From: an uncultured bacterium | Lineage (GTDB): Bacteria > Armatimonadota > Abditibacteriia > Abditibacteriales > Abditibacteriaceae | NCBI GenBank assembly: GCA_963843795.1 | Contig: CAWJLW010000006.1 | Location: forward strand, 2,170,001-2,234,000 | Reading direction: 5' to 3' | DNA: 64,000 bases | Shown: in pieces, positions 710 through 61,734 of the stretch | How the letters are laid out: every line of letters begins with the position of its first letter | Numbering within the stretch: the first letter of the stretch is position 1 | Made by a program: the position numbers and the translations under genes | The notes under the pieces: generated by a model | The model's input: only the letters and a program-made list of their open reading frames with translations | Databases searched by the model: none | What the model was told of the DNA's origin: nothing

Positions 710-842
710 ATTTCATCAGCGACATTAAATTGAAATTACGCCCCTGCAAGTACTTGCAGAGCCGATTTGGCACGCACGCACCGCAAAAGCCACGCCCAAC
801 AAACGCGCTGCAGTGCAAGTACTTGCCAGTTGAATGTTAGTG

Positions 843-3134
843 TTATGAAACAACTTCGTCGATTTGCCAAAGGAAAAGTGTGACGAATTGCGGTGTGTCG
901 TCGATATTTTGAACCTGAAGATTGGCGACCGGCTGCGTACCCCACGCGACCAGATAGCTGCTATTTTCGTTGATTTGTGCTTGAGCCAGCGCTGCACTCA
1001 AAGCCGCACTCGCCATCTTCTGCCGCGCATCGGTGCCTTCATCGGGAAAAATCGCTTCGATTTGGCTTTTCGTTAAAATCCATGTGGCTCCGTTCTGACT
1101 GGAAGCAGTGAGGTCAACGCTGTCTTTCGAGGCAACAGTCGCGGTAGCGCCGCTTTTCAAATCGCCCAGCGCACTGGCGCGGCGTTTTTCGATCCAGACT
1201 GCGCCGCGCCAATCGAAAGGCGTGCGATTGGAAACCGAGAATCTTGGCCCATTACGCTGCAAAACCACGCCCCGTCCGCCATCGATAACCGCGTGGCCGA
1301 CGAAAGTTTTGTAATCCCACATATTGATCGGTGCTTCTTCGATTTTCATGCTGCGGTCGATGGCAGATTGCACGATTTCCGAATTATCCAGCGCATCGCT
1401 GCGGCGCGCGTCGGCAAAGGGCGCCACGCTCATGGTCGCCAGATCGTTGCCTGCGGCGTTTTGGCCTTCAATGGCGTAGGAAGTTTTGCGCGGCGAAAAC
1501 AGCCACAGCAGGCTGTCGGCGCGCGCGCGTCCGCTCTCATTGCTGCCGAAAACAATATTGACCTGACGCTGGCGCACCTGCGTGCCTTTGATGCGCAGCG
1601 CGGCCACAAACGACAGCACGGAAAAAACGATGACTACTAAAGGCACAGTCAGCCACGCCAGTTCGCGCCGATCTATCGCGCGTAAAACGACATAGTTCAC
1701 CGGCACCAGAAAGAAAACATACAAGGCCAAAAACCACGCGATAGCCGATGAAGGCGGCGTTTTCAGTTGCGGTGAACGCACCATTTCTCCACGCAGACGA
1801 TCGGCCAACGCCGAAGCCGAACTACTGTCGTTCATGTCGGCAGTGCGCCGGTAATAATTCGCTGAAGAATAATTGCTCGGCCCACCGAAACTTTCCATCT
1901 GCGGATCGACGCCTTCCATACCCAACGTTTGAGAGCGCAGAGCAAAAATATTGGCCCACAGCAAATTTTGTCCGCTCCAACCGATAAACGGTGGCCGCGT
2001 CGGGTCGAACGCCAGCCACACCACGCGACCAGCACCAAAGGAACGCCAACCCGCTATTGCGGGCGCTAATTTCGTGGAAATTGGCTGCGCTGATGAGAAC
2101 AATTTCCCGGTGGCAATCACGACCGGCGCGCCGCCCAGTCGGTCGCCGCCATCAGAGAATTTTTGGACGTAAGTGCTGACAATTTTCGCAGTTTCACTGT
2201 CGCTGGCGCTTTGCGAATTCTCGGGTTGCAGCGGCCACATTTCACGCAGCGGCGATTGCGCTAAACGCTGCCAGTTAGCGCCGCCCAAAACTAAAATTGT
2301 GCCGCCGCTCGCCGCGTAATCGCGCAAAGCGTCCAACTGTTCGGGAGCCAAACTCGAATGTGGAAAGTCGTGCAGCACGACCACGTCAACACCATCCAAA
2401 CCGACCCAGCGCGTCGGTACCCATTCGTGACCGGCACCCAGCGTCTCCACCGCGCGCGCGCCACTGCTGAAGCTGGGAATCAGCGTTTTTCGCGCACCGC
2501 GATTGCGAGCAGCATAATTGGGCGTGCCGCTACCATTTCCAGCATTCAACGCTTGGCGTTCGATGCGCTCGTCCTCAACTGTGCGAATCGAGGGCAAAGT
2601 TGAGATAAACGCCAAACGTTCGTCGCTATCGCTGATGGTGAGAGCGATGGGCGTTTGTTCGTCGGGTGAAGTCAGCGTAAATTTAAAAACTTGAGTTTCA
2701 ACGCCGCGACCAATGAAAGTAACCGTGCCACCATCAATTGCGCCGCGTTCGATACGTCCATAAAGCCAGATACGTTTGCGCGCGTTGCTGGGCAAATCGA
2801 CAGTGGAAACGAAGTTTGATACCGCGCCCATATCACCCGCGCTCGAAGTCAGGCGCAGTTGTACGCGCCCGCTGACGGCTTCGCCGGTGTTGTTGAAAGT
2901 TACGGCGACAGGAAACCAGCGCCCAAAGCGCGCGACAATCGAAAGTGGGCGCACATTTTTCGGGTCGAGCGGAACTTCTGATAAGGGGCCAACGCGCGAA
3001 AGCGGCGAATCGACGCTCATCGTGAGCGGCGGCGCGTTTTGCGCCCACGCTTTGTTACCGATCAAAAGCCACAGCCCACAAAAAAGGCAAAGCGCGACAC
3101 GCCAAAAGTCACGGCCACGAGAAAAACGCTTCAT
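843..3134 (-). CDS. Exported membrane protein with class I glutamine-amidotransferase-like domain and two TM helices (hypothetical)
   Basis: 763 aa; signal peptide ending AWA; LDGVDVVVLHD...ALRDYAASGGTILVLGG and GAGRVVWLAFD resemble a GATase-like fold; TM pair ALYVFFLVPVNY...LAWLTVPLVVIVFS. Confidence 0.65.
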   Translation of the reverse strand: MKRFSRGRDFWRVALCLFCGLWLLIGNKAWAQNAPPLTMSVDSPLSRVGPLSEVPLDPKNVRPLSIVARFGRWFPVAVTFNNTGEAVSGRVQLRLTSSAGDMGAVSNFVSTVDLPSNARKRIWLYGRIERGAIDGGTVTFIGRGVETQVFKFTLTSPDEQTPIALTISDSDERLAFISTLPSIRTVEDERIERQALNAGNGSGTPNYAARNRGARKTLIPSFSSGARAVETLGAGHEWVPTRWVGLDGVDVVVLHDFPHSSLAPEQLDALRDYAASGGTILVLGGANWQRLAQSPLREMWPLQPENSQSASDSETAKIVSTYVQKFSDGGDRLGGAPVVIATGKLFSSAQPISTKLAPAIAGWRSFGAGRVVWLAFDPTRPPFIGWSGQNLLWANIFALRSQTLGMEGVDPQMESFGGPSNYSSANYYRRTADMNDSSSASALADRLRGEMVRSPQLKTPPSSAIAWFLALYVFFLVPVNYVVLRAIDRRELAWLTVPLVVIVFSVLSFVAALRIKGTQVRQRQVNIVFGSNESGRARADSLLWLFSPRKTSYAIEGQNAAGNDLATMSVAPFADARRSDALDNSEIVQSAIDRSMKIEEAPINMWDYKTFVGHAVIDGGRGVVLQRNGPRFSVSNRTPFDWRGAVWIEKRRASALGDLKSGATATVASKDSVDLTASSQNGATWILTKSQIEAIFPDEGTDARQKMASAALSAALAQAQINENSSYLVAWGTQPVANLQVQNIDDTPQFVTLFLWQIDEVVS

Positions 3135-3313
3135 AGCTTCATTTTACTTCCAATTGTGCCCCGGAGGTTTCATGGCCGCTGGCCACGATAATTTTGTTGA
3201 AGAATTGGCCAACGCTCTGCAAGTACTTGCAACTCGCTCGCAGCGCTCAGCAAAAGGCAACGGGCGAGCGAAATCGCCGTCCAACCCCAGCAACACAGGA
3301 AAACTTAAAACTT

Positions 3314-5170: not shown

Positions 5171-7522
5171 TTATTTATCGAAGCGAAAAGCGCGCAATCG
5201 CAGCGCGTTGGTCACAACGCTGACGCTTGAAAGCGCCATTGCTAAAGACGCGAAAATGGGAGTCAGCATCCAGCCGGTAAACGGGAACAAAACGCCCGCT
5301 GCGAGCGGAATACCAAGCACGTTATAAATGAACGCGAAAAACAAGTTTTGACGCACGTTACTGATAGTGGCTTTTGAAAGGGCAATCGCATTGGCGACCC
5401 CGTGCAAATCGCCGCGCACGAGCGTAATATCGGCGGCTTCTATCGCCACGTCGGTTCCGCTACCCATCGCAATGCCGATGTCAGCACGAGCCAGTGCGGG
5501 CGCATCATTGATGCCATCGCCGACCATCGCGACGACTGAACCTTGGTTTTGCAATTTTTCGATTTCTGTCGCTTTATCTTCGGGCCTCACTTCGGCGCGC
5601 ACATTTGCGGCCTCAATTCCGACTTGCTGCGCGACGGCGCGCGCAGTGCCCACGTTATCGCCGGTCAGCATCACGACTTTCAAACCCAGTTCGCGCAAAT
5701 TTCCAATCGCGGCTTTGGACGATTCTTTGGGCGCATCGGCAATCGCGATAATGCCCGCGTATTCGCCATCAAGCGCGACGAAAACCGGCGTTTTGCCCTG
5801 CTCGGCTAAACGCTGCGCGACGCTTTCATCGGGCGTGATCTTTTGGTCTCGCATCAGGCGCGCATTGCCCGCAAGTACTTGCACAGCGCCCACACGTGCC
5901 TGCAGACCTCCGCCGGTAATCGATTGAAAATCTTGTGGCGTTTCCAATTCCAATTCCCGCAGACGTGCTGCTTCGATCATCGCTTCGCCCAAAGGATGTT
6001 CGCTCGATTGTTCGGCGCTCGCCGCCAATTGCAAAAGCTCATTTTCATCGCGGCCATTTGTCGGACAAATATCGGTAACTTCGGGCTGTCCGCGCGTGAT
6101 GGTGCCAGTTTTATCGAGAACAATCATATCCAAGCGGTGGGCGGTTTCCAGTGCTTCGCCGCCTTTAATGAGAATTCCGTTTTGCGCACCGCGACCGGTT
6201 CCGACCATAATCGCCGTCGGCGTCGCCAAACCCAGCGCGCACGGGCAAGCGATAATCAGCACGGAAACGAAAGTCAAAAGCGCCATTGTCAGGCGACTTG
6301 CGGGCGGCGTGAAATCGAACCAGACGACAAACGTTGCAATCGCCACGCACAAAACGACGGGCACAAAGACGCCGGAAATTGTGTCGGCCAAGCGCTGAAT
6401 TGGTGCTTTGGAGCCTTGCGCTTCCTGCACCATGCGCACGATCTGCGACAAAACCGTGTCGCTTCCCACTTTGGTCGCACGCATGCGGAAAGCGCCAGTT
6501 TTGTTCAGAGTCGCACCAATCACCACATCGCCAGTTTTCTTGGCGACCGCAATCGCTTCGCCGGTCAGCATTGATTCGTCAATTTGCGAACTGCCGTCGA
6601 TAATTTCGCCATCGACCGGCACTTTTTCGCCCGGTCTCACCAGAATGGTATCGCCGATTTGCACGTCGTCCAACGCCACATCAAGCGTTTTTCCGTCGCG
6701 TTCGACGCGCGCGGTTTTAGCTCCCAAATCCATCAATGCGCGAATTGCACCACCAGTTTGTGCGCGCGCCCGCGCTTCCAACAATCGGCCCATCAAAATT
6801 AGCGTGATGACAATCGCCGAAGTCTCGAAATAGACATTCGGCCCCGCCATTCCCTCACGCGCCATGTCGCTTGCCGGTGCGCTTTGCGCCATTACCAGTT
6901 GCGGCGCGACCGTTGCCACCACGCTAAACGCCCACGCGCTAAACGTGCCAATCGCGACCAACGTGTTCATATCCGCTGCACGATGGCGCGCCGCTTTGTA
7001 AGCACCGCTGAAAAATTCTGCGCCCGCACCAAACAGCACTGCGCCCGACAAAAACAGTTCAAACCACAGCCGCCAACTCGCGTTTGCCAGACCGTGAAGC
7101 GCGGGAATTAAATGGCTGCCCATCGCCGTAAATGTAACTGGCAGTGTGAGAAGCAAAGCCAGCCAGAATTTATTTTTCTGCTTTTGATAAGCCGCTTCGC
7201 GCGCCTGAGTTTCCGCATCGACTTCGTCGTTTTTCTGCTTTGCAGTTTGTGGAGTGCCATCAGCGTTTTGTTCCGGCAAAAGCGCATCGTAACCGGCATC
7301 TTTCACCACGTCGCGCAAATGGGCGGCGTCGGTTTCTGAGGCATCGTAATGCACAGTCGCGCGCGTCGTAGCGAAATTGACGCTGCAACTTTCAACGCCC
7401 GGCGCTTTGTTCAACGCGCGCTCGATGCGATTCGCACACGCTGCGCAACTCATGCCCAACAAGGGCAGCTCGATGCGCGCACGTTGTTCTTTCGTCGCAA
7501 GTTCCTTCATGGTTTCACTCAT
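5171..7522 (-). CDS. copA: Cu(I)-translocating P1B-type ATPase
   Basis: GMSCAAC HMA domain, [34 protein letters not shown] and MALSS motifs. Start set at ATG 7522 because the ORF-track extension overlaps csoR. Confidence 0.95.
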
Positions 7523-7528
7523 AATGAT

Positions 7529-7545
7529 ATACCCCCATAGGGTAT
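7529..7545 (-). promoter_or_regulatory. CsoR operator upstream of copA
   Basis: Minus strand ATACCCTATGGGGGTAT: the G/C-tract pseudo-palindrome typical of CsoR sites, 6 nt before the copA ATG and adjacent to csoR. Confidence 0.85.
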
Positions 7546-7596
7546 CAATTTTGATGCCACGATGGTTCGTAGGTTCCCGCAAGTACTTGCACGGCT

Positions 7597-7887
7597 TTAT
7601 TTCAAGAATCGTTTCAGGGAAAGTTGCACTTCGGCCAACAGTTCTTCGTGAGAAAGGTGGGTGGCATCGGGGTGTTCGCTGCCCGAACCGTGCCCTATCA
7701 CACAGCAATCGATGTGATTGGACAACAGTTCGATGCCCAGCGCATCAAGTGCTGAGCGCACGGCAGCGATTTGAGTGAGAATATCGACGCAGTAACGGTC
7801 ATCTTCGACCATTTTTTGAATGCCATTAATTTGTCCGGCGATGCGATTGATGCGCGCTTTGGCTTTGCGGCGAGTAGGTTCGTTCAT
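7597..7887 (-). CDS. csoR: Copper-sensing transcriptional repressor
   Basis: [36 protein letters not shown]...HIDCCV carries the C-H-C ligand set. Confidence 0.92.
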
Positions 7888-7985
7888 GAGCTAATACCTT
7901 GCTCAGTTTGACAGAACCCAAAGCTCAAGCGTTCCAGTGGAAAGGTTTTCGCAGGGCGCGGGCCTTGTGCTTACCCTACACAATT

Positions 7986-9626
7986 CTATTTCACAATCAG
8001 CGCGCCCTGATACATTCCCATGCCGCAGGTAAATTTCAGCGTGCCACTTTTGGGCGGCGTCACGGTGAGGACCGTGCGACCGGCAGGTAACTCGCGGCGC
8101 AAATTCAAGTCGGGAAAAACTACGACATTTCCGCAGCCTTCGTCTTTGGCGCGCTCGAAAACGATTTGCAGCGGTTCGCCACCACGCACTTGAAGTTGCG
8201 AAAGCGTATAACCGCCATCGATTTTCACCGTCACGCTTTGCATTTTCGAGTTAATTTGCTCGGCAAGTACTTGTGGGGCTTTCACAGATGGCGCAGCGAC
8301 ATTAAAGGTAAATGGAACCGTGATGACCTGTCCCCGGTGCTGGAATTGCGCCCAGATTTTATACAAACCAGAGGTCGGTAACGCAAGATCGTATGTGACG
8401 CGCGGACCGTGGGAAGTCGCCATTTGTGGCGTGACTTGTCCGCCCTCACCAACAGTGTGCGTGTGAACCGCGTCCTGACCGTTTTGGCTAATCGCCATCA
8501 TGTGCCCGCTCGCGCCGAGATACATTTCCAAATCGTTCACGTCACGCCCATTTTTGCGCAAGGTGTAAGTCAGCAAACTGGGTCGTCCGGCTTGCAGAGG
8601 TCGCGATAATTGCAACGAAATTTGGTAACCCGCAACCGTTTTGCTCAAGGTTTTATCCGGCATTAAATGAGCTTTATGAGGTTGACCGCCGCCGACTTCG
8701 AGGACGCTGCGTTTGATCTGATTCAAACCGTCCGCAGGTGTAAAATCGGCGAACATCAGATAACGACCGGGACGCGGAAAACTTTGGTCGAGATAAAATT
8801 TGCCATCTTTGGCCTGTTGCGGATGAACGTGAGCAAACCAGCTTAAATCCTCGCTGACCGCGATCAAGTGCATCTGTTTTTCGTGCACCAGTTCGAATTT
8901 GGAAACCAACTGGTCGCTTTCTTTTTCGCGCACCGCGAACGCCAGACGGATGGGCACCTTCGGGCGCGATGCGTCACTAGCGTGCAAACCCATTTGAAAC
9001 TGTTTGGGCGCGCCAAAGCTCAATTCTTCGTAAAGCGCGGCATATTTCTGCGGCGCGGTTTGAAACTGTCTGGCATCATCAGGCGAGCAAAAATAGTAAG
9101 TTTGGCCTGCGTAAACCACAGTGCTGGGCGCTGTCGTAGGCTCAACCGTCATGCGACAAACCGGATCTTTCACCGCACTGGTCGCACGAACGGCACCGAT
9201 GGGCAACAGCGCGCCAGCTGGAAAAATCGCCGCGATCTGGTCCAGCAAAACGTGCATCTGGCGCTGATTTTTGGTCGTTGCGCGCAGGTCGTTATTGTCG
9301 CCGCTTGCGTCCAATGCATTGGCTAAAGTCGCGATTTGTTCCAAGACCACGCGTAACGCTTCTTTTTGTGCAGCCGACAAATTTTGTGAACTGGCCAGCA
9401 ATTGAACATTATCGCGGATATTAAACGCCGTGTCATGAACTTCGGACAATTTTTTCTGTGCCACGATTTCATCGAGATAATCGACTTCTTCGCGCACGTC
9501 GTTCCAACTGCTTCTCGCAGCCGCAAACGGTGCGGGCTGCACGATATTTGACTCGCTGTTCTGTGCATTTGCAACCAGCGGCACATTAAAAATGGCCAGA
9601 GCGCAAAGTATGAATGTGTGTTTCAT
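7986..9626 (-). CDS. Exported multidomain metal-binding protein (helical N-domain, YHS domain, His-rich domains, C-terminal cupredoxin)
   Basis: Signal peptide; KDPVCRMTV...YYFCS (YHS); VHEKQMHLI...FAHVHP; YLGASGHMM...HTH; C-terminal GCG...FTCGMGMYQG. Confidence 0.75.
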   Translation of the reverse strand: MKHTFILCALAIFNVPLVANAQNSESNIVQPAPFAAARSSWNDVREEVDYLDEIVAQKKLSEVHDTAFNIRDNVQLLASSQNLSAAQKEALRVVLEQIATLANALDASGDNNDLRATTKNQRQMHVLLDQIAAIFPAGALLPIGAVRATSAVKDPVCRMTVEPTTAPSTVVYAGQTYYFCSPDDARQFQTAPQKYAALYEELSFGAPKQFQMGLHASDASRPKVPIRLAFAVREKESDQLVSKFELVHEKQMHLIAVSEDLSWFAHVHPQQAKDGKFYLDQSFPRPGRYLMFADFTPADGLNQIKRSVLEVGGGQPHKAHLMPDKTLSKTVAGYQISLQLSRPLQAGRPSLLTYTLRKNGRDVNDLEMYLGASGHMMAISQNGQDAVHTHTVGEGGQVTPQMATSHGPRVTYDLALPTSGLYKIWAQFQHRGQVITVPFTFNVAAPSVKAPQVLAEQINSKMQSVTVKIDGGYTLSQLQVRGGEPLQIVFERAKDEGCGNVVVFPDLNLRRELPAGRTVLTVTPPKSGTLKFTCGMGMYQGALIVK

Positions 9627-9643
9627 GATATGTTTTTAAGTCT

Positions 9644-50413: not shown

Positions 50414-50445
50414 GTGTTTATTTTTAGATAAAGCAAAGGTTTTCT

Positions 50446-51513: not shown

Positions 51514-51536
51514 ATTTTTGTACTGCGAACACAACT

Positions 51537-51572: not shown

Positions 51573-51633
51573 GGTTTCTATACCCGCAAGCACGATTGCA
51601 ACGAAAAACTGGTAACGCAGTCGAAGCTTGGCT

Positions 51634-54600: not shown

Positions 54601-54672
54601 GCGATGGCGCGATGGGAGCCGACAATTATGGCAATATTTGCCAGCTTACAGCAAACGAAACCAGCGCTTTGA
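51634..54672 (+). CDS. Large exported protein, possible clan GH-A glycoside hydrolase with extra C-terminal domains
   Basis: Signal peptide; LRVEIGW, IEVWNE, SRHYY and WWETE are spaced like a (beta/alpha)8 GH-A fold. Confidence 0.55.
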   Translation: MKSPYVGLAIGITLTASALAQAMPFALQKSDSKSAALTEPYEATRHRPPPFGAISYYNQPWRGYMDTWPAAKFLGALGSQYNGLDAKVAAPLFQLMDESGIRNLRVEIGWNNLNWNDEVAPDRKEYFTQILQLAKAHHIRPLILLNANHGAPGPMREVRAQLRSDAHKGDRALQLEPNAAIRPGYTGLGRLQDNIAAFPLITSVQNDGTAQLSAPLPSDLKAGPISLLDLKYQPFQDVQLKDGTPVPASAETFEGWQKYAANVGAFVRSIVGTPKDAGFDIEVWNEQTFGSNFLDINNYYEPKREYGQKFIYRKTRARTAQMKPDAKLEFEQPGFQPDAGGKSVYAILPMTIDYFSDASHRFPGVKVVSGFSNQWPWDAGSLLWPGQAGFSRHYYSGDYGDIGPNHPANSGDAIDAMGQRETSPFVPTFHLGFPEYFQSGFKTETAARDLFPSSQNIGIGDTAHGRFTGTGDWKRAEWWETETEWNREHFLQNVQRASGVSENDPRLLALVRHTISKMMLRQALFNLHKGFDRIYLYSLQSETLNYGLLTPDFYQALEADNYQLTPRVLELLPQGWNSWKWFTQLMESGEKIDAPRALNIAELIEHQPRLVFAGDGTPAHPDVYNRDWFAMLPIQLGANRFAIPYYVVSPDAMHDWNPQKNPLDPTRYDLPDQDFEIVIGNIAGAGAKVSVYDPLTSKTIPVKVLGANQSRVRVQLKTTDYPRILLIDEAQAGPQIIAPHLALNGDNTATLSWKTNVPLKSARIFFGNESSHREIHEREIKVQPNQRDFKVEIPAAGASLLATRIRVAANHLVNTWPRWNEDPQGQIVLPNAIAKAKLPSSSEKPTLIDAPKTPLNALTSPADIALPVTEANVVRGYSLRVPRDAQLSGPEDDREMTLGNGANTVTLRARWMENGAKNPARYLPVTAVGDTNQTSRVILPSRLEANLSEYRLAATSHPDIKDLTRKYLQVVNGPNHADLLVLSATGTAQAMARWEPTIMAIFASLQQTKPAL

Positions 54673-54691
54673 GCGCGCGATTTCAAAGCGA

Positions 54692-54725
54692 AAAAGCGCG
54701 CTGCAAGTACTTGCAGCGCGCTTTT
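54692..54725. terminator. 34-bp perfect palindrome; bidirectional terminator between convergent genes
   Basis: AAAAGCGCGCTGCAAGTACTTGCAGCGCGCTTTT. Confidence 0.85.
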
Positions 54726-54738
54726 CTTCTTTCGGTTC

Positions 54739-55752
54739 TTACTTTTTATGGCGCGGCAGTGCAGCAGTGTGCGTGCGCCACGCGGCGACGAGTTCGTCCT
54801 CATATTTGTCGCTGTCGCTATCGCTGGATTTTACGCGATCATTTTCTTCCAGCCATTGCAGGGTGCGCCGCACGCCTTCGCGGAAGTCAATGGTCTGGCC
54901 AGTGTAATTGGTATCACGCTTAATTTTCGAGTTATCAAAAATCGAAGGCCAACTTAAAATTTCAGCAGAACTGCCCGACAAACCGGGCGCGACTTCCTGC
55001 AGCGTTTCGGTTGGAATGTGAACTGCTTCTAGCGTGCCGCCCGCAACTTCTGCGACCTGTTCGTGATAAGTGTTCCACGTCATCCATTCATCGCCGGTAA
55101 TGTTATACGCTTCGCCGATACACTTTTCGTTTTGCATCACTCCGATAAAGCCACGCGCCACATCATCGACGTGGCAACTCGCCCACAAATTGGTGCCATC
55201 GCCGGGGATGATGATCGGCTTGCCGGTGCGCAAGCGGTCAACGAAAGTCGCGTTTGAACCGAAGCAGCGAATGATGTCGCCGCCTTCGCCATACGAGTGC
55301 GACGGACGCATAATCGTGACCGGAAATTCGTCGTTGCTATACGCATCCCACAGCAATTCTTCGCAGCGAATTTTATTCTTGCCGTAACCGCCAATCGAAT
55401 GATAGGGTTCGGTTTCAGTCGTCGGCAATTGCTCGACCGGTCCAGAATAAACACATACCGTCGAACAATGAATGAATTGCTTGGTACGGCCTTTAAACGC
55501 GCGAATCGCCGATTGCGTGTCTTCGGGCGTAAACGCCACCATATCGACTACTACATCGTAATTTTCATCAGCGAACTGCTTTTCAAAGGTTTCGGTGTCT
55601 TTGCGGTCGCCTTCGATAATTTTGCAATCGCCCGTCACACGATTTTTGGTTTTGCCACGATTGTATAAAACGACTTCGTGACCTTGCTCGCACAATTGTG
55701 TGGCAATAGAAGTTGAAATTAAACCGGTTCCGCCGACAAACAAAACTTTCAT
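54739..55752 (-). CDS. NAD-dependent epimerase/dehydratase (extended SDR)
   Basis: VGGTGLIS, YGKNK, RPSHSYG, HVDDVA. Confidence 0.88.
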   Translation of the reverse strand: MKVLFVGGTGLISTSIATQLCEQGHEVVLYNRGKTKNRVTGDCKIIEGDRKDTETFEKQFADENYDVVVDMVAFTPEDTQSAIRAFKGRTKQFIHCSTVCVYSGPVEQLPTTETEPYHSIGGYGKNKIRCEELLWDAYSNDEFPVTIMRPSHSYGEGGDIIRCFGSNATFVDRLRTGKPIIIPGDGTNLWASCHVDDVARGFIGVMQNEKCIGEAYNITGDEWMTWNTYHEQVAEVAGGTLEAVHIPTETLQEVAPGLSGSSAEILSWPSIFDNSKIKRDTNYTGQTIDFREGVRRTLQWLEENDRVKSSDSDSDKYEDELVAAWRTHTAALPRHKK

Positions 55753-55859
55753 TTTCATTCCTTTCAAATCAAACGCTTAAATCAAACGCCCTGCAAGTAC
55801 TTGCACAAGTACTTGCAGGGCGAAAACTTTTGAATTTCTTCTCTGCGATGGAAGTTCAA

Positions 55860-56843
55860 CTACACAAACCGACGCACTTTCACCGGCTGACCCGATTCCA
55901 TCGATTCGTTGGCCGCGAGTGTGATTGCCAGCGTTTGCGCACCGGAGATATACGGACTCATCACGCCTTCCATACTGTTGGTTTGAATTGCTTTGACAAA
56001 AGCGCGGTCGCCGTTGCCCAATTGTTCGGCCCAGGTTTGGTCACCCTCGAACTCGACTTCGCCGTTTTCATCTTGCAACTTTGCGCCATCGGCACCAACC
56101 TCAGCTGCCCAGTTGCGACCTTTCACAGTTAAACCAACTTTACCTTTGCCATGCTTCTCGGCAATGCAACCGCTCGTGACCTGTCCGATTGCGCCCGAAT
56201 CGAACATCATCGTCACAATCGAAGTGTCATGAATATCGTAGTTTTCGATATCGGTCATTGCGCCGGTCGCGCCCGCACCGAAAACAGTGTGCACTTCGCC
56301 CGCCAGATAACGTGCCAGGTCAACCGCGTGCGTGCTTTGCTCGACCAGTTGACCGCCCGACAATTTCATCTGGCGCCACCACGGGCCGCCCACAAAACCG
56401 CCATACCAATACGCCTCGACAATGCTAATTTTGTGGTCTTCCAACCATTTCTTGCTTTTTTGCACCGGCGTCGTATAGCGCCAGTGATAGCCGACGCTGT
56501 TAATTAAATTGTTCTTTTCAATGGCTTCAATCACTCGCGCGCACGCATCTAACTCCAAATGCACCGGCTTTTCCGCATAAAATGGCAGTTTGGCATTGGC
56601 TAAATCCAATTCAATGGTGCCGTGACCGGCGGGAATAACACAAACGTAACAGCCATCGAGCGATTCGTTTTTCAGCATTTCGTGATAATCGGTGTAAGGC
56701 GTTGCGCTGTATTTTTCGCCGACTTCGCGCGCGCGATCTTCCATGATGTCGCAGACGGCGCTAATTTCCACACCTTCCATTTCCGATAAATTCTTCAAAT
56801 GCGGCTGCGCGACGCCTCCAACTCCAATAAATCCAATCTTCAT
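55860..56843 (-). CDS. Gfo/Idh/MocA family oxidoreductase
   Basis: IGFIGVG, AEKPV, GYHWRY, SGGQLVEQSTH; GGAGG RBS. Confidence 0.9.
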   Translation of the reverse strand: MKIGFIGVGGVAQPHLKNLSEMEGVEISAVCDIMEDRAREVGEKYSATPYTDYHEMLKNESLDGCYVCVIPAGHGTIELDLANAKLPFYAEKPVHLELDACARVIEAIEKNNLINSVGYHWRYTTPVQKSKKWLEDHKISIVEAYWYGGFVGGPWWRQMKLSGGQLVEQSTHAVDLARYLAGEVHTVFGAGATGAMTDIENYDIHDTSIVTMMFDSGAIGQVTSGCIAEKHGKGKVGLTVKGRNWAAEVGADGAKLQDENGEVEFEGDQTWAEQLGNGDRAFVKAIQTNSMEGVMSPYISGAQTLAITLAANESMESGQPVKVRRFV

Positions 56844-57107
56844 TTGGCCTCCATGCCAAGATTTTTGTGGCTTGCCACTATTCTAACCCGTCTAAAACCG
56901 CTCGCAAATACCTTTTAGCATTTCGGTCACCAAAAGCTCTTGCAAGTACTTGCATAGCATTTCACATCACGAATTATTCATGATGCGAAATCTTGAATTA
57001 TCAGCATGGATTGAATTTGTGGCGTATCAATCGGAGCGATTTCCGTTCCGTTGGTTTCGGTTTCGGCTGGCAAGTACTGGCATTAAATTAATGTCATACT
57101 CAAAGCC

Positions 57108-57773
57108 ATGAGGACCTTTGCTATCGGTGATATTCACGGCTGTGCGACGGCGCTTGATTTGATTTTACTGGAGATTGAATTACAGCCGACAGATGTTTTG
57201 GTCACGCTGGGCGATTATGTCGATAGAGGCCCAGATTCCAAAGGTGTCATCAATCGTTTATTGGGGCTGCAAAATCGGGTTCAACTCATCGCACTGCGCG
57301 GCAATCACGAAATAATGATGCTACAAGCACGCGATAATCCCGCAGCCGAAGAAACGTGGCGTTTCTATGGTGGCGATACCACGATAAGTTCTTATGGCTC
57401 CGATGCTTTGGCCGATATACCAGATGAACATTGGGATTTCATCGAAAACCAGTGCGTGAGGTATTGGGAAAACGATACGCATTTCTTCGTTCATGCCAAT
57501 GCCTATCCCAAGCTACCGTTATTCCAACAGCCCAATGACCGGCTTTTCTGGCGAAAATTTGATTATCCCGAACCGCACATTTCCGGAAAAATCATGATTT
57601 GCGGCCACACCAGCCAGCAAAGCGGCTTGCCGGTTCATATCGGCCACGCGATTTGTCTGGATACGTGGGCTTACGGCGACGGCTGGCTTTCGTGTTTGAA
57701 CTTGCAAAGCGGTCAACTGTGGCAAGCCAATCAAGCCGGAGAGCAACGACAGATGTGGCTGAATGAGCTTTGA
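57108..57773 (+). CDS. Ser/Thr protein phosphatase (PPP-family metallophosphoesterase)
   Basis: GDIHG, GDYVDRG, RGNHE, FVHA, CGHT, LDT. Confidence 0.92.
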   Translation: MRTFAIGDIHGCATALDLILLEIELQPTDVLVTLGDYVDRGPDSKGVINRLLGLQNRVQLIALRGNHEIMMLQARDNPAAEETWRFYGGDTTISSYGSDALADIPDEHWDFIENQCVRYWENDTHFFVHANAYPKLPLFQQPNDRLFWRKFDYPEPHISGKIMICGHTSQQSGLPVHIGHAICLDTWAYGDGWLSCLNLQSGQLWQANQAGEQRQMWLNEL

Positions 57774-57780
57774 GTTGCGC

Positions 57781-59235
57781 TCACGGTTTCGATTGGGCCA
57801 ACTGCTTTTTGTTCGCGTAGGTTTGCTGGCCATTAATGTCGCTGGCGACCAGTTCAAATTCGTCGCCGCCCGCGCGCTGCACAAATTCGCTGCGATTGAA
57901 AGTGACACGCTTGGGTGCGGAATCGGGATAAAAAATGGTGTCGCGCGATTGGTCGGCGCGATTGATGCCAATAAAGCGCACGCCCGCATTTGATGTGACG
58001 ATGATTTTTCCCCGCTCATCTATTGTAATTGCCGGATCTGTAATTGTCGGCTCGGCGCGGTTGGCTTGCGGGCGCGCATCCACTTCAAACCATCGATTGT
58101 AAGCCAGGCGCGCGGCGCTGGTGCGCTCAAAGCGCGCGATTTCGTCGTCGTGAAAGTCAATAATTTCAGTTTTGCCCTGACGCGGAGGTTCGCGCAGCGT
58201 AAAAACGCGATTGAATCCGTCGAAGCCACGCGACATGATAGAGAAATTATCGGGCGAGTGCGGCAAGCCGAACGTGTGTCCCATTTCGTGCAAAGTCGCA
58301 CCGATTGTTGTCGCGGCCAAACCCCAGATGCGGCTGCGAAATGCGCTATCATCCAAAACGAGCGCTGGGTCGACTAGCGTGGCATCGGAAAAAACGCTCT
58401 GCACTTCTTGCAAATCGCTTGGCCACGAAAACAAGTTCAAACTGCCGAACAAGCCCAAACCGCCACCGCCCAGTGCGGTGTGCGCGTAATCGGTGCGCGT
58501 GGCGCGATCGTAATCGGAAAAACCCATAATCACGATGTTTTTGGCCTGTTTGGTCGGATACAGCGGTTCGATAAAATTGTTGACTTCGTCATACAATTGA
58601 TAGCCGCCGCTATCGGTTTTCGACTTGCGAAAGGTGCGGTAATAAGCTTTGGGATGCGGCGTTTTCACGGTGTGAATTACGACTTCGCCCTGCGGGTCAA
58701 GCTCTAAACGAAAAGTTTTGCGACCGAAACCATGCGCATTCAGGGTTTCCGCCGTCATGGTTTGCATCAGCTTGGTCGCGGTCGATAAGCGCGCGCGGTA
58801 GTTCTGCGGATCGTTGTCGCGCTGTGTGCTGTAATTGGTGTTGCCGCTGCTGTCGGTCAGGTAAATCACGCGCACGACATACGGCGTCGTCATCGGCTGA
58901 TAATTCAAAGCTAGCGTGGTTTTCGATTGGCCATCCGACAATTCGATTTGGTTTTTGCCGGCCACTAACTGCGTCAAAGCTTTGAAGCGCCCACCGTAAA
59001 CTTCGGTTGTAAAGCGGCGCGAAGCCAGTTGCGAAGAATAATTATTCAAAATCAACTGCGTTTTGTCGGGCGCCTCGGTGCGACCTTCGATGAGCGCGAC
59101 TGGATAACGCAGCGTGGTATTCGGTTCCAAGTTGCTCACCGTTATTGCGGCGTGCGCAGTTCCGATTCCATTCCAAATTCCAACAGCACAAACAAACTTC
59201 GCCAGCCAGCGCACATGTTTTTTCATATTTCCCAT
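57781..59235 (-). CDS. Exported zinc metallopeptidase (metzincin-like)
   Basis: HTALGGG, LHEMGHTFGLPH, Met-turn IMSRGF. Confidence 0.82.
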   Translation of the reverse strand: MGNMKKHVRWLAKFVCAVGIWNGIGTAHAAITVSNLEPNTTLRYPVALIEGRTEAPDKTQLILNNYSSQLASRRFTTEVYGGRFKALTQLVAGKNQIELSDGQSKTTLALNYQPMTTPYVVRVIYLTDSSGNTNYSTQRDNDPQNYRARLSTATKLMQTMTAETLNAHGFGRKTFRLELDPQGEVVIHTVKTPHPKAYYRTFRKSKTDSGGYQLYDEVNNFIEPLYPTKQAKNIVIMGFSDYDRATRTDYAHTALGGGGLGLFGSLNLFSWPSDLQEVQSVFSDATLVDPALVLDDSAFRSRIWGLAATTIGATLHEMGHTFGLPHSPDNFSIMSRGFDGFNRVFTLREPPRQGKTEIIDFHDDEIARFERTSAARLAYNRWFEVDARPQANRAEPTITDPAITIDERGKIIVTSNAGVRFIGINRADQSRDTIFYPDSAPKRVTFNRSEFVQRAGGDEFELVASDINGQQTYANKKQLAQSKP

Positions 59236-59319
59236 CTAATTTCCCCTATCCTCAAAGAAAATCGCCCTGCAAGTACTTGCGTAAGTGCTTGCAGGGCGAA
59301 AGTTTGCATCACTGATGTT

Positions 59320-59841
59320 TCAGGGATAATTCTTGGCGTCGTTGCCATAACGCCAAAAGCGTTCATGACCGATTTGCGTCATCGGGCGGCCATTGGTTTC
59401 ATCGGCGCGCACGCCGACAAAGCCCAGCGATTGTTTACGCGTCGGACGCACGCGGCGCACGACTTCGCGCCCACCTTTGATTTCCTTCGGCGTGCCGCAC
59501 GAGCCGGTCGCTTTTTGCAACGTGCCACCGATGTGATAGGTTTCGCGTTCGATGCTGAGAATCAGGTGGTCTTTTTCAACGCGCCAGCGCCCATTCCAAC
59601 CGCGCAAGCGCGACTGACAATCCATCTGGCTGGCGTGGAAATGGACGCGGCCATTGGTGTAGAAACGATAGGTTTGCGCCCAGCCCGCCCCCATCGCGGG
59701 CGCAGCTTGCCACACACCAACCAAAGCCGCGCTATTGGCTTTTCTGGCTGGCTTGCGCTTCACGGTTTTAGCACTGGCCGCGTGCATCGCGACCACAGCC
59801 AACGCGCTCAATGTCAGACCTGTTAGGAAATTCCATCGCAT
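59320..59841 (-). CDS. Exported hypothetical protein
   Basis: GGAGG RBS before ATG 59841; signal peptide; LVGVW...YRFYTNG...GRWRV beta-rich pattern. Confidence 0.65.
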   Translation of the reverse strand: MRWNFLTGLTLSALAVVAMHAASAKTVKRKPARKANSAALVGVWQAAPAMGAGWAQTYRFYTNGRVHFHASQMDCQSRLRGWNGRWRVEKDHLILSIERETYHIGGTLQKATGSCGTPKEIKGGREVVRRVRPTRKQSLGFVGVRADETNGRPMTQIGHERFWRYGNDAKNYP

Positions 59842-59901
59842 TTTCGCACCTCCACTGTCACCAACTTTGTATCGCACTTACATCACACAGTTTACTACCA
59901 A

Positions 59902-61692
59902 CTATTTCCCCAACACCGCGCGATAGTTGAAACGGTCGTTGGGCGCGACATCGCCGTTAAGAGTGAAGTCGCGGGCTGAACCATCGCCCACGATGCCATC
60001 GGCCCATTTGAAATCGATAGTTTGCGCATTTGCACCGAAAATCCAGCGTGGAATTGCGATTTCCATTTCGTTGCCGCGATAAGCGCTTTTCAATCTGCGG
60101 CCTTTGTTCCATTGATATTGATTCTTCAAATTGGCGGCGATTTCGGCAGTTTGGCCATCTGCGCTGTAGCTGACACGGAAATCGTAGCCCAGCCATCCGG
60201 TTTGCGGATTGTTGTCTGCATCAAGGAACAGACACATCCAGTTTTTATCCGGTGCGCTCAAAGCGTTTAGTGTTTGTACATAGAAATACGCACTGTGCGT
60301 GTCATAAGAAACTTTTGCGTTGAAAATATCGTTGCGGCCCGTAGAATTTTTGTAAACGATGTCGGCCCAACCGGGATGATCGCGCCGCGCAGGATCACCC
60401 AGAGTGTCGCGAAATTCGGGCGCGGCCCGCTGCCAGTCGGTGAAGTCGCCGTCGATGCGAATCGGTGTCGCAAGTACTTGCCCGGCTTCACGCGCGCCTT
60501 TGTATTGGCGGATAAACGTGTGCAGTTGATAGAGATAGTTATCTGCAATTTTTCCATTCACGGGCTCAATGTCACGACTAAATTCTTCGTTGAAGGCATC
60601 GACGAAAAACGTGGCGCCAGTTTTTTGTGGCAATCCGGCGAAAATTTCATCTTTTTTCGAGGTGAAGCGCTGAGCAATCCATTCGTTCCAACCGGTGACA
60701 AAAACCAAAGGCGGATCGACATCCAAAGCGTGCTGCATTTGCTCGGTGAAATACAAGCCCTGTCCGGCTGTGGGCGTCAGATGGAATTTATCGACTGGCG
60801 GTTCTTTGCCGTTTTGATAGGAACGCCCAATAGAAGTTGTGGCGTGCTGCGCCGTCGCCACGCTGATGGCTTCGGGTTTATCGGGCGCATCGTGCCATCC
60901 GAACTTTTGCGGCGAATGGTCGAGCCACGGCCACTTGTCTTTGCCATCGCCGAACCAACTGCCCGCCGACCATGCCCACGAACGGCGAATCGTAAAATAA
61001 TCTTGCGCTTCGGGCGGCAGCTTGCCCAAATCAACTTCTGGCTTTAGCAAAAATAGCGGCTTAATTTGGCCCCTATCGTCGGGCCATTGAAACCATAAAT
61101 CTTGGAATAGAGATTTCGAATAGAACTCTTTCCATAAAGTTTCCGCCGCGCCTTGATTGGGAAAGAACGCGATAGAAGGCGTTTTCACACCTTGCGCGCG
61201 CATCGCAGCAAATTCGCGGCAAATCGCGGTGTAAACCGTCGGATAGGTCAAGCCGTTGGTGTTATCGAAGAAAAGGACATCGACACCGGCATCGCTCAGC
61301 ATTTGCGCGTGCTTGCGAATGATATACGGATCGTCATTGCGATAATAGCCAAACCACGGCTCGCCCCACCAGTGAAAAGCGCCCTCGCCACCATATTTTG
61401 GAGCATCGGGATCGGCAGCAAGAATTTTCGTAATGTCGAAAATAGGACGACTTTTCTCGCCCTGCCAGAGAAAATAAAACATTCCGACTGTGCGATTGGG
61501 TTTGGGCGGCCCAACATAAGCGCCCGTTGGCACTGCACGTCCCAACGCATCGGTCGCCACCCACGTATCGGCCATCACGTCGCGCGTCGGCATTTGGTTT
61601 TGGGGATTGGCATTGGCATTTTGCAATGCCCAAAAAGGCAGACCAGCACCCAAAATCGTGGCTGTCAAGGTTTTGCGAAAAAAACTTTTCAT
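59902..61692 (-). CDS. Exported GH99/GH71-like TIM-barrel protein with C-terminal beta-sandwich
   Basis: VGMFYFLW, HWWGEPWFGYY, RKHAQMLSDAGVD, VTGWNEW, FSRDIEP, IRIDGDFTDW. Confidence 0.6.
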   Translation of the reverse strand: MKSFFRKTLTATILGAGLPFWALQNANANPQNQMPTRDVMADTWVATDALGRAVPTGAYVGPPKPNRTVGMFYFLWQGEKSRPIFDITKILAADPDAPKYGGEGAFHWWGEPWFGYYRNDDPYIIRKHAQMLSDAGVDVLFFDNTNGLTYPTVYTAICREFAAMRAQGVKTPSIAFFPNQGAAETLWKEFYSKSLFQDLWFQWPDDRGQIKPLFLLKPEVDLGKLPPEAQDYFTIRRSWAWSAGSWFGDGKDKWPWLDHSPQKFGWHDAPDKPEAISVATAQHATTSIGRSYQNGKEPPVDKFHLTPTAGQGLYFTEQMQHALDVDPPLVFVTGWNEWIAQRFTSKKDEIFAGLPQKTGATFFVDAFNEEFSRDIEPVNGKIADNYLYQLHTFIRQYKGAREAGQVLATPIRIDGDFTDWQRAAPEFRDTLGDPARRDHPGWADIVYKNSTGRNDIFNAKVSYDTHSAYFYVQTLNALSAPDKNWMCLFLDADNNPQTGWLGYDFRVSYSADGQTAEIAANLKNQYQWNKGRRLKSAYRGNEMEIAIPRWIFGANAQTIDFKWADGIVGDGSARDFTLNGDVAPNDRFNYRAVLGK

Positions 61693-61708
61693 AGCTATGT
61701 TTCGTGTC

Positions 61709-61734
61709 GCGCACCGCAAGTACTTGCGGTGCGC
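61709..61734. repeat. 26-bp perfect palindrome between tandem paralogues
   Basis: GCGCACCGCAAGTACTTGCGGTGCGC. Confidence 0.9.

What the first reader, a model, noticed from the sequence alone, without database searches (positions are those of the whole stretch)
746..61727. A highly iterated 12-bp palindrome, GCAAGTACTTGC, pervades the window: candidate new HIP1/uptake-sequence-like system
Seen: 43 perfect copies in 64 kb (one per ~1.5 kb) against about 0.004 expected for a 12-mer at uniform composition, plus several one-mismatch copies. They occur between convergent, tandem and divergent genes and inside unrelated CDSs. Known: the comparable phenomena are cyanobacterial HIP1 (GCGATCGC, which contains methyltransferase target sites), Neisseria DUS and Pasteurellaceae USS, and REPs. 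This motif matches none of them, and it is centred on AGTACT/GTAC, which are known R-M target types. Inference: a lineage-wide DNA signal maintained by a dedicated protein (methyltransferase-linked repair, DNA uptake receptor, nucleoid/partition protein or nuclease) encoded outside this window.
Basis: partly seen in the sequence, partly recalled or inferred. Interest (0 to 1): 0.92.

Follow-up and report, generated by a model that had tools for sequence, protein, structure and literature searches.

The report
Uptake-sequence-like DNA palindrome with dialects
A little-known soil bacterium has written one 12-letter DNA palindrome about 2,600 times into its genes and spacers, in the same evenly spread pattern as the 'self' tags that Neisseria and Haemophilus use to pick up their own DNA, and its relatives use different versions; the protein that reads it is unknown.

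Summary
Confirmed. GCAAGTACTTGC occurs 43 times in the window and 2,567 times in the 4.3-Mb genome (Markov expectation 0.1-7.5). The host belongs to Abditibacteriaceae. Seven of 27 family genomes carry GTAC-containing dialects (for example CAAAGTACTTTG, TCGAGTACTCGA and a 22-bp dyad). Most motif-free relatives sampled are depleted of GTAC, some almost completely.

The layout matches DNA uptake sequences: 29% of copies lie in genes, encoded tripeptides are enriched 2-4-fold, copies serve as terminator hairpins, and conserved genes and islands are depleted. Coding copies fill in where intergenic copies are missing. A DUS-like word in a Neisseria-labelled genome showed this fill-in; HIP1 on a cyanobacterial plasmid did not. 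Unlike DUS/USS, the site is a dyad with A/T tracts phased at 10.5 bp to about ±50 bp.

Best reading (0.55): a self-DNA uptake signal spread by biased transformation, possibly methyl-licensed at GTAC by a family-specific orphan methyltransferase whose specificity is only inferred. Competence genes are present but do not distinguish motif-bearing from motif-free genomes, and no receptor was found. Main rival: a DNA-wrapping nucleoid protein. Not found in print in eight searches; this scan noted the motif family before on other DNA (e1-5297255, e1-3282491).

The parts
746..61727 (.). Set of 43 perfect copies of the 12-bp palindrome GCAAGTACTTGC (starts: 746, 815, 3219, 4712, 5871, 7579, 9892, 10385, 13359, 15588, 17458, 18480, 21614, 22897, 23578, 25451, 26544, 29106, 30364, 33522, 33563, 34748, 35260, 35285, 36846, 38967, 40284, 41918, 43588, 44814, 45588, 46670, 49246, 49296, 50389, 51549, 54527, 54703, 55793, 56942, 59269, 60470, 61716)
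   Evidence: 28 intergenic and 15 in CDS
5871..60481 (.). 15 copies inside predicted CDSs (5871, 9892, 10385, 23578, 30364, 34748, 35260, 35285, 38967, 43588, 44814, 46670, 49246, 54527, 60470), mostly in the frame that reads x-Q-V-L-x; hosts include a heavy-metal P-type ATPase, SbcC, an amylase-family enzyme and an ABC transporter
8263..57081 (.). Six one-mismatch copies (8263, 19537, 32229, 39538, 55805, 57070)
25438..25475 (.). Copy extended by 13 bp per side into a perfect hairpin with A- and T-tracts, between convergent genes: bidirectional intrinsic-terminator form
   Evidence: -26.9 kcal/mol, z -7.1
33552..33585 (.). Hairpin-extended copy (11 bp per side) between sbcD and sbcC
45575..45612 (.). 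Hairpin-extended copy (13 bp per side) in a divergent spacer
49286..49317 (.). Hairpin-extended copy (10 bp per side) in a tandem spacer
50379..50410 (.). Hairpin-extended copy (10 bp per side) followed by a T-run; terminator form
   Evidence: -25.3 kcal/mol, z -6.2
51537..51572 (.). Hairpin-extended copy (12 bp per side) in a tandem spacer
54692..54725 (.). Hairpin-extended copy (11 bp per side) between convergent genes; bidirectional terminator form
   Evidence: -25.5 and -26.8 kcal/mol on the two strands, z -4.7 and -5.1

Best explanation
The palindrome is a DNA-uptake-type self signal. SHOWN: it is a DNA-level word held to an exact sequence; many coding copies sit at positions that align without a gap in relatives; it spreads until most 1-2-kb stretches hold one; it is reused as the top of terminator hairpins; and it has species- or genus-specific dialects. 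INFERRED: a receptor in the type IV pilus/competence apparatus (or an early step of transformation) prefers fragments that carry the dyad, bent about its centre as the 10.5-bp phased A/T flanks suggest. Biased uptake plus homologous recombination then drives the word through the chromosome, as for DUS/USS. INFERRED and weaker: the GTAC core is N6-methylated by the family's orphan beta-class methyltransferase (G000 C6:2517365-2518135), so recognition may be methyl-licensed, as reported for HIP1 and Campylobacter.
For: Density 0.6/kb and 29% in CDS (749 of 2,567), against 0.89/kb and 34.5% for meningococcal DUS (PMC2817400). 749 of 846 motif-compatible peptide positions use the exact word (4.6 expected from codon usage); QVL 935 vs 388, KYL 308 vs 137, STC 154 vs 35, reversed tripeptides not enriched. 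CDS density rises from 0.075/kb next to an intergenic copy to 0.45/kb at 2-3 kb, and is flat (0.18-0.29) against motif-free spacers; dispersion index 0.58 against 0.75±0.03 and 0.88±0.04 in position-matched nulls. The same fill-in appears in G006, G009 and the metagenome relatives, and for a DUS-like word in a Neisseria-labelled genome (0.25 to 0.93/kb, dispersion 0.52), but not for HIP1 on pAQ7 (1.1-1.6/kb, dispersion 1.21). 177 of 293 convergent-spacer copies extend to perfect hairpins of 10 bp or more, against about 7 in flank shuffles. Depleted in the most conserved genes (0.08 vs 0.30/kb) and absent from two 26-kb IS-rich islands. Perfect copies outnumber all one-mismatch copies 2,567 to 506. 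ComEC, ComEA, DprA, a ComM-like ChlI-family gene and PilB/PilT are present; short-read contigs of run X1 lack the extra base at five places in the pilus operon, so those frameshifts look like assembly errors. Every dialect contains GTAC. GTAC is the 4-mer most depleted in methyltransferase-positive, motif-free samples relative to methyltransferase-negative ones (170 of 823 expected vs 618 of 845).
Against: Known uptake sequences are not palindromic (PMC2817400); here both halves are required (561 half-only 8-mers against 5,126 inside perfect copies), and the G006 dyad has one fixed spacing in 61 of 61 pairs. That suits a dimeric binder. Phasing to about ±50 bp was absent from the DUS-like control and is weak in other dialects. 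Competence and pilus genes occur equally in motif-free genomes, and minor-pilin divergence showed no motif-related pattern. No receptor was identified. A phage-plasmid and plasmid-like contigs also carry the host dialect, which an intracellular reader explains as easily. The methyltransferase link is only a correlation across related genomes: G016 lacks a detectable ortholog yet has GTAC O/E 0.03, CTAG is also depleted, and families f11 and f34 avoid RAGTACTY without the ortholog. The controls are one partial genome (372 kb, an untested DUS-like word) and one plasmid (150 kb). Gaps lie near 27 of 113 coding sites against 11% background, so some copies may have arisen by insertion.
Confidence: 0.55

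Rival explanations
1. Binding site of an abundant sequence-specific dimeric nucleoid or topology protein that wraps about 110 bp of DNA every 1.3-1.6 kb (a nucleosome-like spool or a gyrase-recruiting factor). Selection for regular coverage keeps the lattice.
For: Strict dyad symmetry; fixed dyad geometry in G006; A/T-tract peaks at +8, +19, +29, +39 and +48 with period 10.5 even deep in CDSs (27, 19, 17, 16, 16% against 12% control); only 4 of 155 gaps under 500 bp in G006; resident mobile elements carry the host dialect; density is even along the chromosome.
Against: Dialect changes within a genus would need thousands of sites rewritten without a drive. 20 of 27 family genomes show no such AGTACT signal (other words sampled over only 6-50 kb each). 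The fill-in is reproduced by a DUS-like word. No histone-fold match in 5 genomes; HU shows no motif-linked pattern, with one copy in each motif-bearing genome. Phasing is weak in other dialects.
Confidence: 0.22
2. HIP1-like methylation system: hemimethylated GTAC in this context is a strand-discrimination or entry signal for mismatch repair (or a repair ratchet creates the word, as Elhai proposed for HIP1), needed within 1-2 kb of any base.
For: Palindrome with an internal methyltransferase-type site; orphan methyltransferase in all 7 motif-bearing genomes and in none of 137 genomes of other families; MutS and MutL present; range-limited action would also give fill-in.
Against: The HIP1 control has no fill-in, no intergenic excess and no phased flanks (plasmid only). 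The same methyltransferase and MutS occur in motif-free genomes. In G006 GTAC is not at the dyad centre. A mutational ratchet does not explain 10.5-bp flank phasing.
Confidence: 0.12
3. REP/REPIN-like repeat spread by a Y1 (RAYT) transposase or another hairpin-acting nuclease.
For: 70% of copies are intergenic and many form hairpins; G006's dyad looks REP-like; gaps are enriched near coding sites (27 of 113); G000 has one weak Y1_Tnp match.
Against: Arms outside the core differ from copy to copy; 749 in-frame coding copies have no hairpin arms; 111 aligned coding sites have no gap in the relative, and 52 of them differ by substitution only; copies repel each other, not cluster; no Y1_Tnp match in G006, and G000's is a partial hit in a small mobile region with no motif cluster.
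Confidence: 0.05
4. Intracellular self tag (Chi-like): a translocating nuclease or helicase is stopped or licensed by the word, so DNA lacking it over more than about 2 kb is destroyed; resident phages and plasmids acquire it for protection.
For: Range-limited spacing; mobile elements adopt the host dialect; dialects differ between lineages.
Against: Chi sites are short, asymmetric and read on single strands (recalled). Here the site is a 12-22-bp dyad with double-strand bending flanks, and 26-kb motif-free islands persist in the chromosome.
Confidence: 0.06

Closest known systems
Neisseriaceae DUS (receptor ComP) and Pasteurellaceae USS (receptor predicted to be ComN/PpdA); PMC2817400, PMC7811141, bioRxiv 10.1101/2025.10.24.684340, PMC12616744
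   Same: About one copy per 1-1.6 kb, more even than random, about a third in genes, reading-frame bias and doubled tripeptides, terminator hairpins, depletion in conserved and newly acquired DNA, dialects between relatives, A/T tracts in helical phase (USS).
   Different: Dyad-symmetric (DUS and USS are not palindromic); one copy forms the hairpin top, not a variably spaced inverted pair; phasing is symmetric and reaches about ±50 bp; invariant GTAC; different phylum (Armatimonadota); no receptor or uptake assay.
Cyanobacterial HIP1 (GCGATCGC) and alternate HIPs; PMC4390886, PMC5861425, PMC13756078
   Same: Perfect palindrome at about 1/kb in genes and spacers, spread largely by substitution, lineage variants, internal methyltransferase-type site and a conserved orphan methyltransferase; HIP1 is reported to raise transformation in a methylation-dependent way.
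   Different: 12-22 bp against 8 bp; 14-fold intergenic excess and terminator use; local fill-in and phased flanks that the HIP1 plasmid control lacks; sister lineages deplete the core 4-mer.
Campylobacter jejuni methylation-dependent DNA discrimination in transformation (Beauchamp 2017; seen only as a passage and reference in PMC12378983; the CtsM/RAATTY names are recalled)
   Same: An orphan methyltransferase marks a palindromic site proposed to license uptake.
   Different: There the signal is the 6-bp methylated site itself; here a 12-22-bp exact context is enriched thousands-fold while bare GTAC is depleted (O/E 0.62).
REP/REPIN with RAYT transposases (recalled)
   Same: Abundant short intergenic palindromes that form hairpins near gene ends.
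   Different: In-frame coding copies, variable arms, even spacing, no RAYT tied to the motif.
E. coli SlmA-binding sequence, also a 12-bp palindrome around AGTACT (recalled, not checked in a paper)
   Same: Length, symmetry and central hexamer.
   Different: About 100-fold more copies, and no depletion around the putative terminus.

Membership tests
DNA uptake sequences (DUS/USS) | Hundreds- to thousands-fold over-representation at about 1 per kb, perfect copies dominating | tested here: met
   2,567 vs 0.12-7.5 expected; 506 one-mismatch copies
DNA uptake sequences (DUS/USS) | More even than random spacing | tested here: met
   Dispersion 0.58 vs 0.75 and 0.88 in nulls; fill-in matches a DUS-like control
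DNA uptake sequences (DUS/USS) | Under-represented in CDS, frame-biased, enriched tripeptides | tested here: met
   0.20 vs 2.9/kb; frames 493/140/116; QVL, KYL and STC enriched 2.2-4.4-fold
DNA uptake sequences (DUS/USS) | Use in intrinsic terminators | tested here: met
   177 of 293 convergent copies form hairpins of 10 bp or more with covarying arms; termination itself not measured
DNA uptake sequences (DUS/USS) | Depleted in newly acquired DNA and in strongly conserved genes | tested here: met
   Two 26-kb IS-rich gaps; 0.08 vs 0.30/kb by protein conservation; phage-plasmid contig 0.24 vs 0.63/kb
DNA uptake sequences (DUS/USS) | Non-palindromic core | tested here: not met
   Perfect palindrome with both halves required; G006 form is a fixed dyad
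DNA uptake sequences (DUS/USS) | Competence and type IV pilus machinery present | tested here: met
   ComEC, ComEA, DprA, ComM-like, PilB/T/C/D and minor pilins; equally present in motif-free relatives
DNA uptake sequences (DUS/USS) | Cognate minor-pilin receptor (ComP, ComN) | tested here: inconclusive
   Pfam gives only N_methyl/DUF1559; two folded candidates from G009 gave no clear match
DNA uptake sequences (DUS/USS) | Motif-dependent DNA uptake | not testable with these tools
   Needs a transformation assay
HIP1-type highly iterated palindromes | Hyper-abundant perfect palindrome in coding and non-coding DNA, conserved in position between species | tested here: met
   61 of 113 aligned coding sites keep AGTACT in relatives at about 65% amino-acid identity
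HIP1-type highly iterated palindromes | Contains the site of a resident orphan methyltransferase | tested here: inconclusive
   Orphan PF01555 enzyme in 7 of 7 motif-bearing genomes; GTAC specificity inferred only from depletion, with exceptions
HIP1-type highly iterated palindromes | Distribution like HIP1 (no intergenic excess, no local fill-in) | tested here: not met
   HIP1 on pAQ7: 86% in CDS, CV 1.0, flat density; this motif: 29% in CDS with fill-in; the control is a plasmid
HIP1-type highly iterated palindromes | [quoted passage not shown] | not tested
   Only pair distances up to 6 kb were examined
REP/REPIN-RAYT | Extragenic copies with conserved arms | tested here: not met
   749 coding copies; arms vary between copies
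REP/REPIN-RAYT | Cognate Y1 transposase flanked by repeats | tested here: inconclusive
   Weak partial hit in G000 with no motif cluster; no match in G006; hits in G001, G009 and G012 not examined further
Replichore- or domain-positioned sites (parS, matS, SlmA sites, Chi) | Skewed towards or away from ori/ter, or polarised by strand | tested here: not met
   47-83 copies per 100 kb along C6 apart from the island-rich first bin (30); palindromic

The most novel reading that the evidence does not exclude
A third, independently evolved sequence-specific DNA-uptake system, the first outside Proteobacteria. A dimeric or two-armed receptor reads a methylated GTAC dyad and folds about 100 bp of A-tract-phased DNA around it. 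The system switched on, or was lost, several times within one family whose other members purge GTAC. It would join DUS/USS, HIP1 and methylation-licensed uptake in one mechanism.
Probability: 0.3. Interest if true: 0.92.

Novelty: new variant of a known kind. Interest (0 to 1): 0.78.

Why it matters
Sequence-specific uptake signals are described for two proteobacterial families (PMC2817400; bioRxiv 10.1101/2025.10.24.684340), and HIP1's function is still open after three decades (PMC13756078). A family in another phylum with motif-bearing, dialect-switched and GTAC-purging members side by side is a natural experiment. It can show how such signals start, how specificity changes, and whether methylation licenses them. 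The fill-in statistic used here separated a DUS-like word from HIP1 in the two controls tried, so it may help to classify other iterated motifs from sequence alone. If the nucleoid rival is right, it would be a regularly spaced, sequence-encoded DNA-wrapping signal in bacteria, which would also be surprising. In practice, the dialect and GTAC methylation may decide whether these bacteria can be transformed.

Tried and rejected
Viral scans for the G000 16-mer (6 single hits) and the g6 14-mer (119 stretches): no contig at host-like density among the loci held. PabI-family GTAC glycosylase as the cause of avoidance: 0 of 31 genomes. Histone fold: 0 of 5. HU: no pattern. Methyltransferase specificity by homology: best solved relatives are M.RsrI and others at low similarity, and plasmid and phage hits are 36% identical or less, none with a stated GTAC specificity; gene neighbours are not conserved. 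Codon-bias screen for an abundant basic protein: bias too weak. Folding two minor pilins of G009: the 594-aa model (pLDDT 73) gave only pilin-like matches at Z 4.8 or less, and the PilX-like model was poor (pLDDT 52) with no Foldseek match at E 0.001. No RNA holder listed. Atlas look-up with RecA gave no taxonomy. Nostoc alpha plasmid HIP1 control too sparse (36 clusters). A minor DUS word in G043 showed no fill-in (CV 1.29). The reading 'merely conserved terminators' was rejected because coding copies have no complementary arms. The reading 'competence is dead in G000' was rejected because 21 of 299 test genes also carry frameshifts and run X1 lacks the extra base at five places in the operon. 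No unbiased gene presence/absence screen was possible, because whole relative genomes were not available as files. PMC5617262 is not held. PMC8919816 mentions AGTACT only as a ScaI assay site.

Full report
1. OBSERVATION. The window holds 43 perfect copies of GCAAGTACTTGC at the stated coordinates; none arose in 100 shuffles. Six one-mismatch copies exist. The window is G000:C6:2170001-2234000. The genome (4.30 Mb, 11 contigs, 53% GC) holds 2,567 copies on all contigs, 0.63/kb on C6 and 0.07-0.56/kb on the small contigs. Expectation from the motif-masked genome is 0.12 (order 3) or 7.5 (order 5). One-mismatch copies total 506. Only 561 of 5,687 half-site 8-mers lie outside perfect copies, so both halves matter. 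Homologues of a G000 protein are named Abditibacterium utsteinense (77%) and Abditibacteriaceae bacterium, which places the host in Abditibacteriaceae (Armatimonadota).

2. ANATOMY. Gene positions come from my own dicodon gene caller (3,427 genes). 1,803 copies are intergenic, 749 in CDSs and 15 on edges: 2.9/kb against 0.20/kb. About half of tandem and divergent spacers and 64% of convergent spacers hold a copy. Coding copies use the three frames 493/140/116. Of 846 peptide positions compatible with the word, 749 use it exactly, against 4.6 expected from codon usage. QVL (935 vs 388), KYL (308 vs 137) and STC (154 vs 35) are enriched, and their reversals are not. In convergent spacers 177 of 293 copies extend into perfect hairpins of 10 bp or more, with copy-specific complementary arms and A/T tails (about 7 expected after shuffling flanks). 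Coding copies show no such complementarity. Three hairpin-type window sites fold at -25 to -27 kcal/mol, while two coding sites fold at -13 and -15. The word is therefore a DNA-level signal that is also used as a terminator top. Outside the core, A/T triplets peak at +8, +19, +29, +39 and +48 bp with period 10.5, even deep inside genes (27, 19, 17, 16, 16% against a flat 12% control). That indicates DNA bent or wrapped about the dyad (inference). The phasing is weaker in the other dialects.

3. SPACING. Copies are more even than position-matched nulls: dispersion 0.58 against 0.75±0.03 (real intergenic sites, coding sites randomised) and 0.88±0.04 (spacer counts permuted). Coding density climbs from 0.075/kb within 100 bp of an intergenic copy to 0.45/kb at 2-3 kb, but is flat against motif-free spacers. 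The two largest gaps (26 kb each) are IS-rich islands, one with a type I restriction-modification cluster, judged from protein starts. Among 470 orthologues, density falls from 0.30/kb at 45-65% identity to 0.08/kb above 75%. Density is even along the chromosome.

With one crude pipeline, the fill-in appears in G000 (0.12 to 0.52/kb), G006 (0 to 0.66), G009 (0.16 to 0.82) and metagenome relatives (0.26 to 0.86). It also appears for the dominant word GCCGTCTGCA, one base from the published DUS, in 372 kb of a Neisseria-labelled genome (0.25 to 0.93, dispersion 0.52). A minor DUS word there showed none. HIP1 on 150 kb of pAQ7 showed no fill-in, CV 1.0 and 86% coding. Both controls are limited: an untested dialect in a partial genome, and a plasmid.

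4. RELATIVES. The exact word has 0-3 copies in each of 40 relatives. RAGTACTY has 2,695-4,371 copies in 6 of 31 class genomes (G000, G001, G009, G012, G015, G019), 0-117 in the other 21 family genomes, and at most 354 in 137 genomes of other families. The dialects are CAAAGTACTTTG (G001), WTCGAGTACTCGAW (G009, G015, G019) and a looser YGAGTACTCR (G012). G006 has GTACGGTCGA 1,473 + 1,508 times. In 240 kb it forms a dyad with one fixed spacing in 61 of 61 pairs, most 'singles' keep a decayed second half, and only 4 of 155 gaps are under 500 bp. Motif-free genomes were sampled over only 3-50 kb each, so unrelated words could have been missed.

On a single-gene ComEC tree (28 sequences; G011 and G014 dropped as too short) the motif-bearing genomes fall in two groups, with motif-free G003, G005, G008 and G017 interleaved. 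This suggests more than one gain or several losses; support is modest. Metagenome loci at about 70% nucleotide identity carry AGTACT at 1.1-1.25/kb, with GCAAGTACTTGC the commonest form (132 stretches found, scan cut at its limit, flanks held for 80). In codon alignments 61 of 113 coding sites keep AGTACT at the same place. Part of this follows from conserved QVL: 13 of 22 conserved QVL sites without the motif in G000 also have AGTACT in the relative. 111 aligned sites have no gap in the 12 nt and 52 of these differ by substitution only. Gaps lie within 15 nt of 27 of 113 sites against 11% background. A 58-kb phage-like contig carries the G006 dialect and shares distant proteins with G000's contig C4, which carries the G000 dialect at 0.24/kb.

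5. GTAC AND THE METHYLTRANSFERASE. All dialects contain GTAC. Many motif-free relatives purge it: AAGTAC occurs 8-57 times per 5-6 Mb in the five genomes tested, against 2,100-3,800 for the reversed word (the control lacks a TA step, so it overstates the contrast). Sample O/E values are 0-0.5. In G000, GTAC outside the motif has O/E 0.62. G000 has one PF01555 methyltransferase (C6:2517365-2518135, DPPY type) with unconserved neighbours. Its orthologue is in 22 of 31 class genomes, including all 7 motif-bearing ones and two broken copies, and in 0 of 137 genomes of other families. GTAC is the 4-mer most depleted in orthologue-positive, motif-free samples relative to orthologue-negative ones (170 of 823 expected vs 618 of 845). 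Against this link: G016 (no orthologue found) has O/E 0.03 and G002 0.30, CTAG is also depleted, kin are not independent, and families f11 and f34 avoid RAGTACTY without the orthologue. No PabI-family enzyme was found in 31 genomes. Specificity remains an inference.

6. MACHINERY. G000 has ComEC (30 of 31 genomes), ComEA (29 of 31), DprA, a ComM-like ChlI-family gene, seven PilB/PilT-type matches and an operon pilB-pilT-pilC-pilD-four minor pilins-PilX-like. Its frameshifts look like assembly errors: 21 of 299 test genes are also frameshifted, and single low-depth contigs of run X1 lack the extra base at five places in the operon. PilB is found in 25 of 27 family genomes, and the operon in motif-bearing and motif-free genomes alike, with no motif-linked divergence. 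MutS, MutL, gyrase, SMC and HU are present. No receptor or binder was identified.

7. MECHANISM. Shown: an exact dyad word, mostly substitution-type placement, range-limited saturation, proteome imprint, terminator reuse, dialects and phased flanks. Inferred: biased uptake plus recombination drives the word (0.55), with methylation at GTAC as a possible licence. Fragment-level uptake predicts saturation once a fragment holds one site, and even spacing is described as the expected result of such drive (PMC7811141, passages). Rivals: a DNA-wrapping nucleoid or topology protein (0.22), favoured by the strict dyad, the long phasing and the copies on mobile elements; a methyl-directed repair signal (0.12); a Chi-like self tag (0.06); REP/RAYT (0.05).

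8. COMPARISON AND NOVELTY. It works most like DUS/USS but fails one described feature, the non-palindromic core (PMC2817400), and the defining assay could not be run, so I do not file it as a DUS/USS. It shares palindromy and a possible methyl site with HIP1 but not its distribution. Papers seen: first part (abstract, introduction) of PMC2817400, PMC13756078 and bioRxiv 10.1101/2025.10.24.684340; passages of PMC7811141, PMC5861425, PMC4390886, PMC12378983 and PMC8919816; search listings only for PMC12616744 and bioRxiv 10.1101/2024.09.10.611283. No supplements were read. SlmA, Chi, REP and CtsM details are recalled.

The exact 12-mer is in no held paper. Four dialect strings gave 62 papers, of which 25 were listed and none by title concerns bacterial repeats. 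Searches on Abditibacteria, palindromes, uptake and GTAC (only the top rows listed in most) showed no description. Subscription papers and supplements are not covered. This scan had already noted the AGTACT family with dialects in another Abditibacteriaceae genome (e1-5297255) and a 24-letter host palindrome in a phage (e1-3282491); I treated these as leads. The second prompted the viral scans.

9. VERDICT. Real, family-restricted and apparently undescribed in print; a new variant of the uptake-sequence/HIP kind. Interest 0.78. The reader protein and the function need experiments.

Noticed in passing
L484-L486, L491, L503, L504, L511, L512, L548, L563, L573, L587: AT-rich (37-46% GC) phage contigs with almost no protein similarity to G000 carry GTGCAAGTACTTGCAC repeatedly, in several cases about 15-30 bp upstream of start codons beside an RBS-like stretch; possibly a phage promoter or operator with the same core.
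   Followed up: partly
G005, G008, G013, G016, G007 (whole genomes): Near-total loss of GTAC-containing words, with no PabI-family enzyme found; cause unexplained. Families f11 and f34 of the phylum also avoid RAGTACTY.
   Followed up: partly
G043 via L031; L631-L650: A Neisseria-labelled genome whose commonest 10-mer is GCCGTCTGCA (425 in 372 kb) ahead of the canonical DUS (143); not checked against the published dialect list.
   Followed up: partly
G006 C14 (L611-L622): The half-site with its preferred flank, AAGTACGGT, differs by one base from the H. influenzae USS core AAGTGCGGT given in PMC2817400; probably chance. Several half-sites are followed by a second repeat starting GGGTGCCCAC.
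   Followed up: no
G007, G016, G018 samples (for example L128, L129): A repeated word around CAGCCACG, up to 13 times in 7-47 kb, in one motif-free clade; possibly a REP-like family.
   Followed up: no
G000 contigs C3 and C4: C4 (100 kb) looks like a phage-plasmid related to L353-L357; C3 (41 kb) looks like a contractile-tail (eCIS-like) gene cluster with only 3 motif copies. Both judged from protein starts, not from family searches.
   Followed up: partly
L194, L195, L202, L217: Small plasmid- or phage-like metagenome contigs with no hit to G000 proteins, yet carrying the G000 word at about 1 AGTACT per kb, some as terminator hairpins.
   Followed up: partly
window 32256-36812: An sbcD-sbcC pair with five motif copies in or between the genes (33522, 33563, 34748, 35260, 35285).
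   Followed up: no
G000 genome-wide: 21 of 299 tested genes carry frameshifts, including housekeeping genes, consistent with assembly indels.
   Followed up: partly
L022 (G016:C1): A repeat array with about 107 copies of one unit in 7.9 kb, CRISPR-like.
   Followed up: no
G020:C88:3115-3876: The methyltransferase orthologue of G020 (genus g2) is 75% identical to G000's, against 57-61% in other g2 genomes; a hint of transfer between genera.
   Followed up: no
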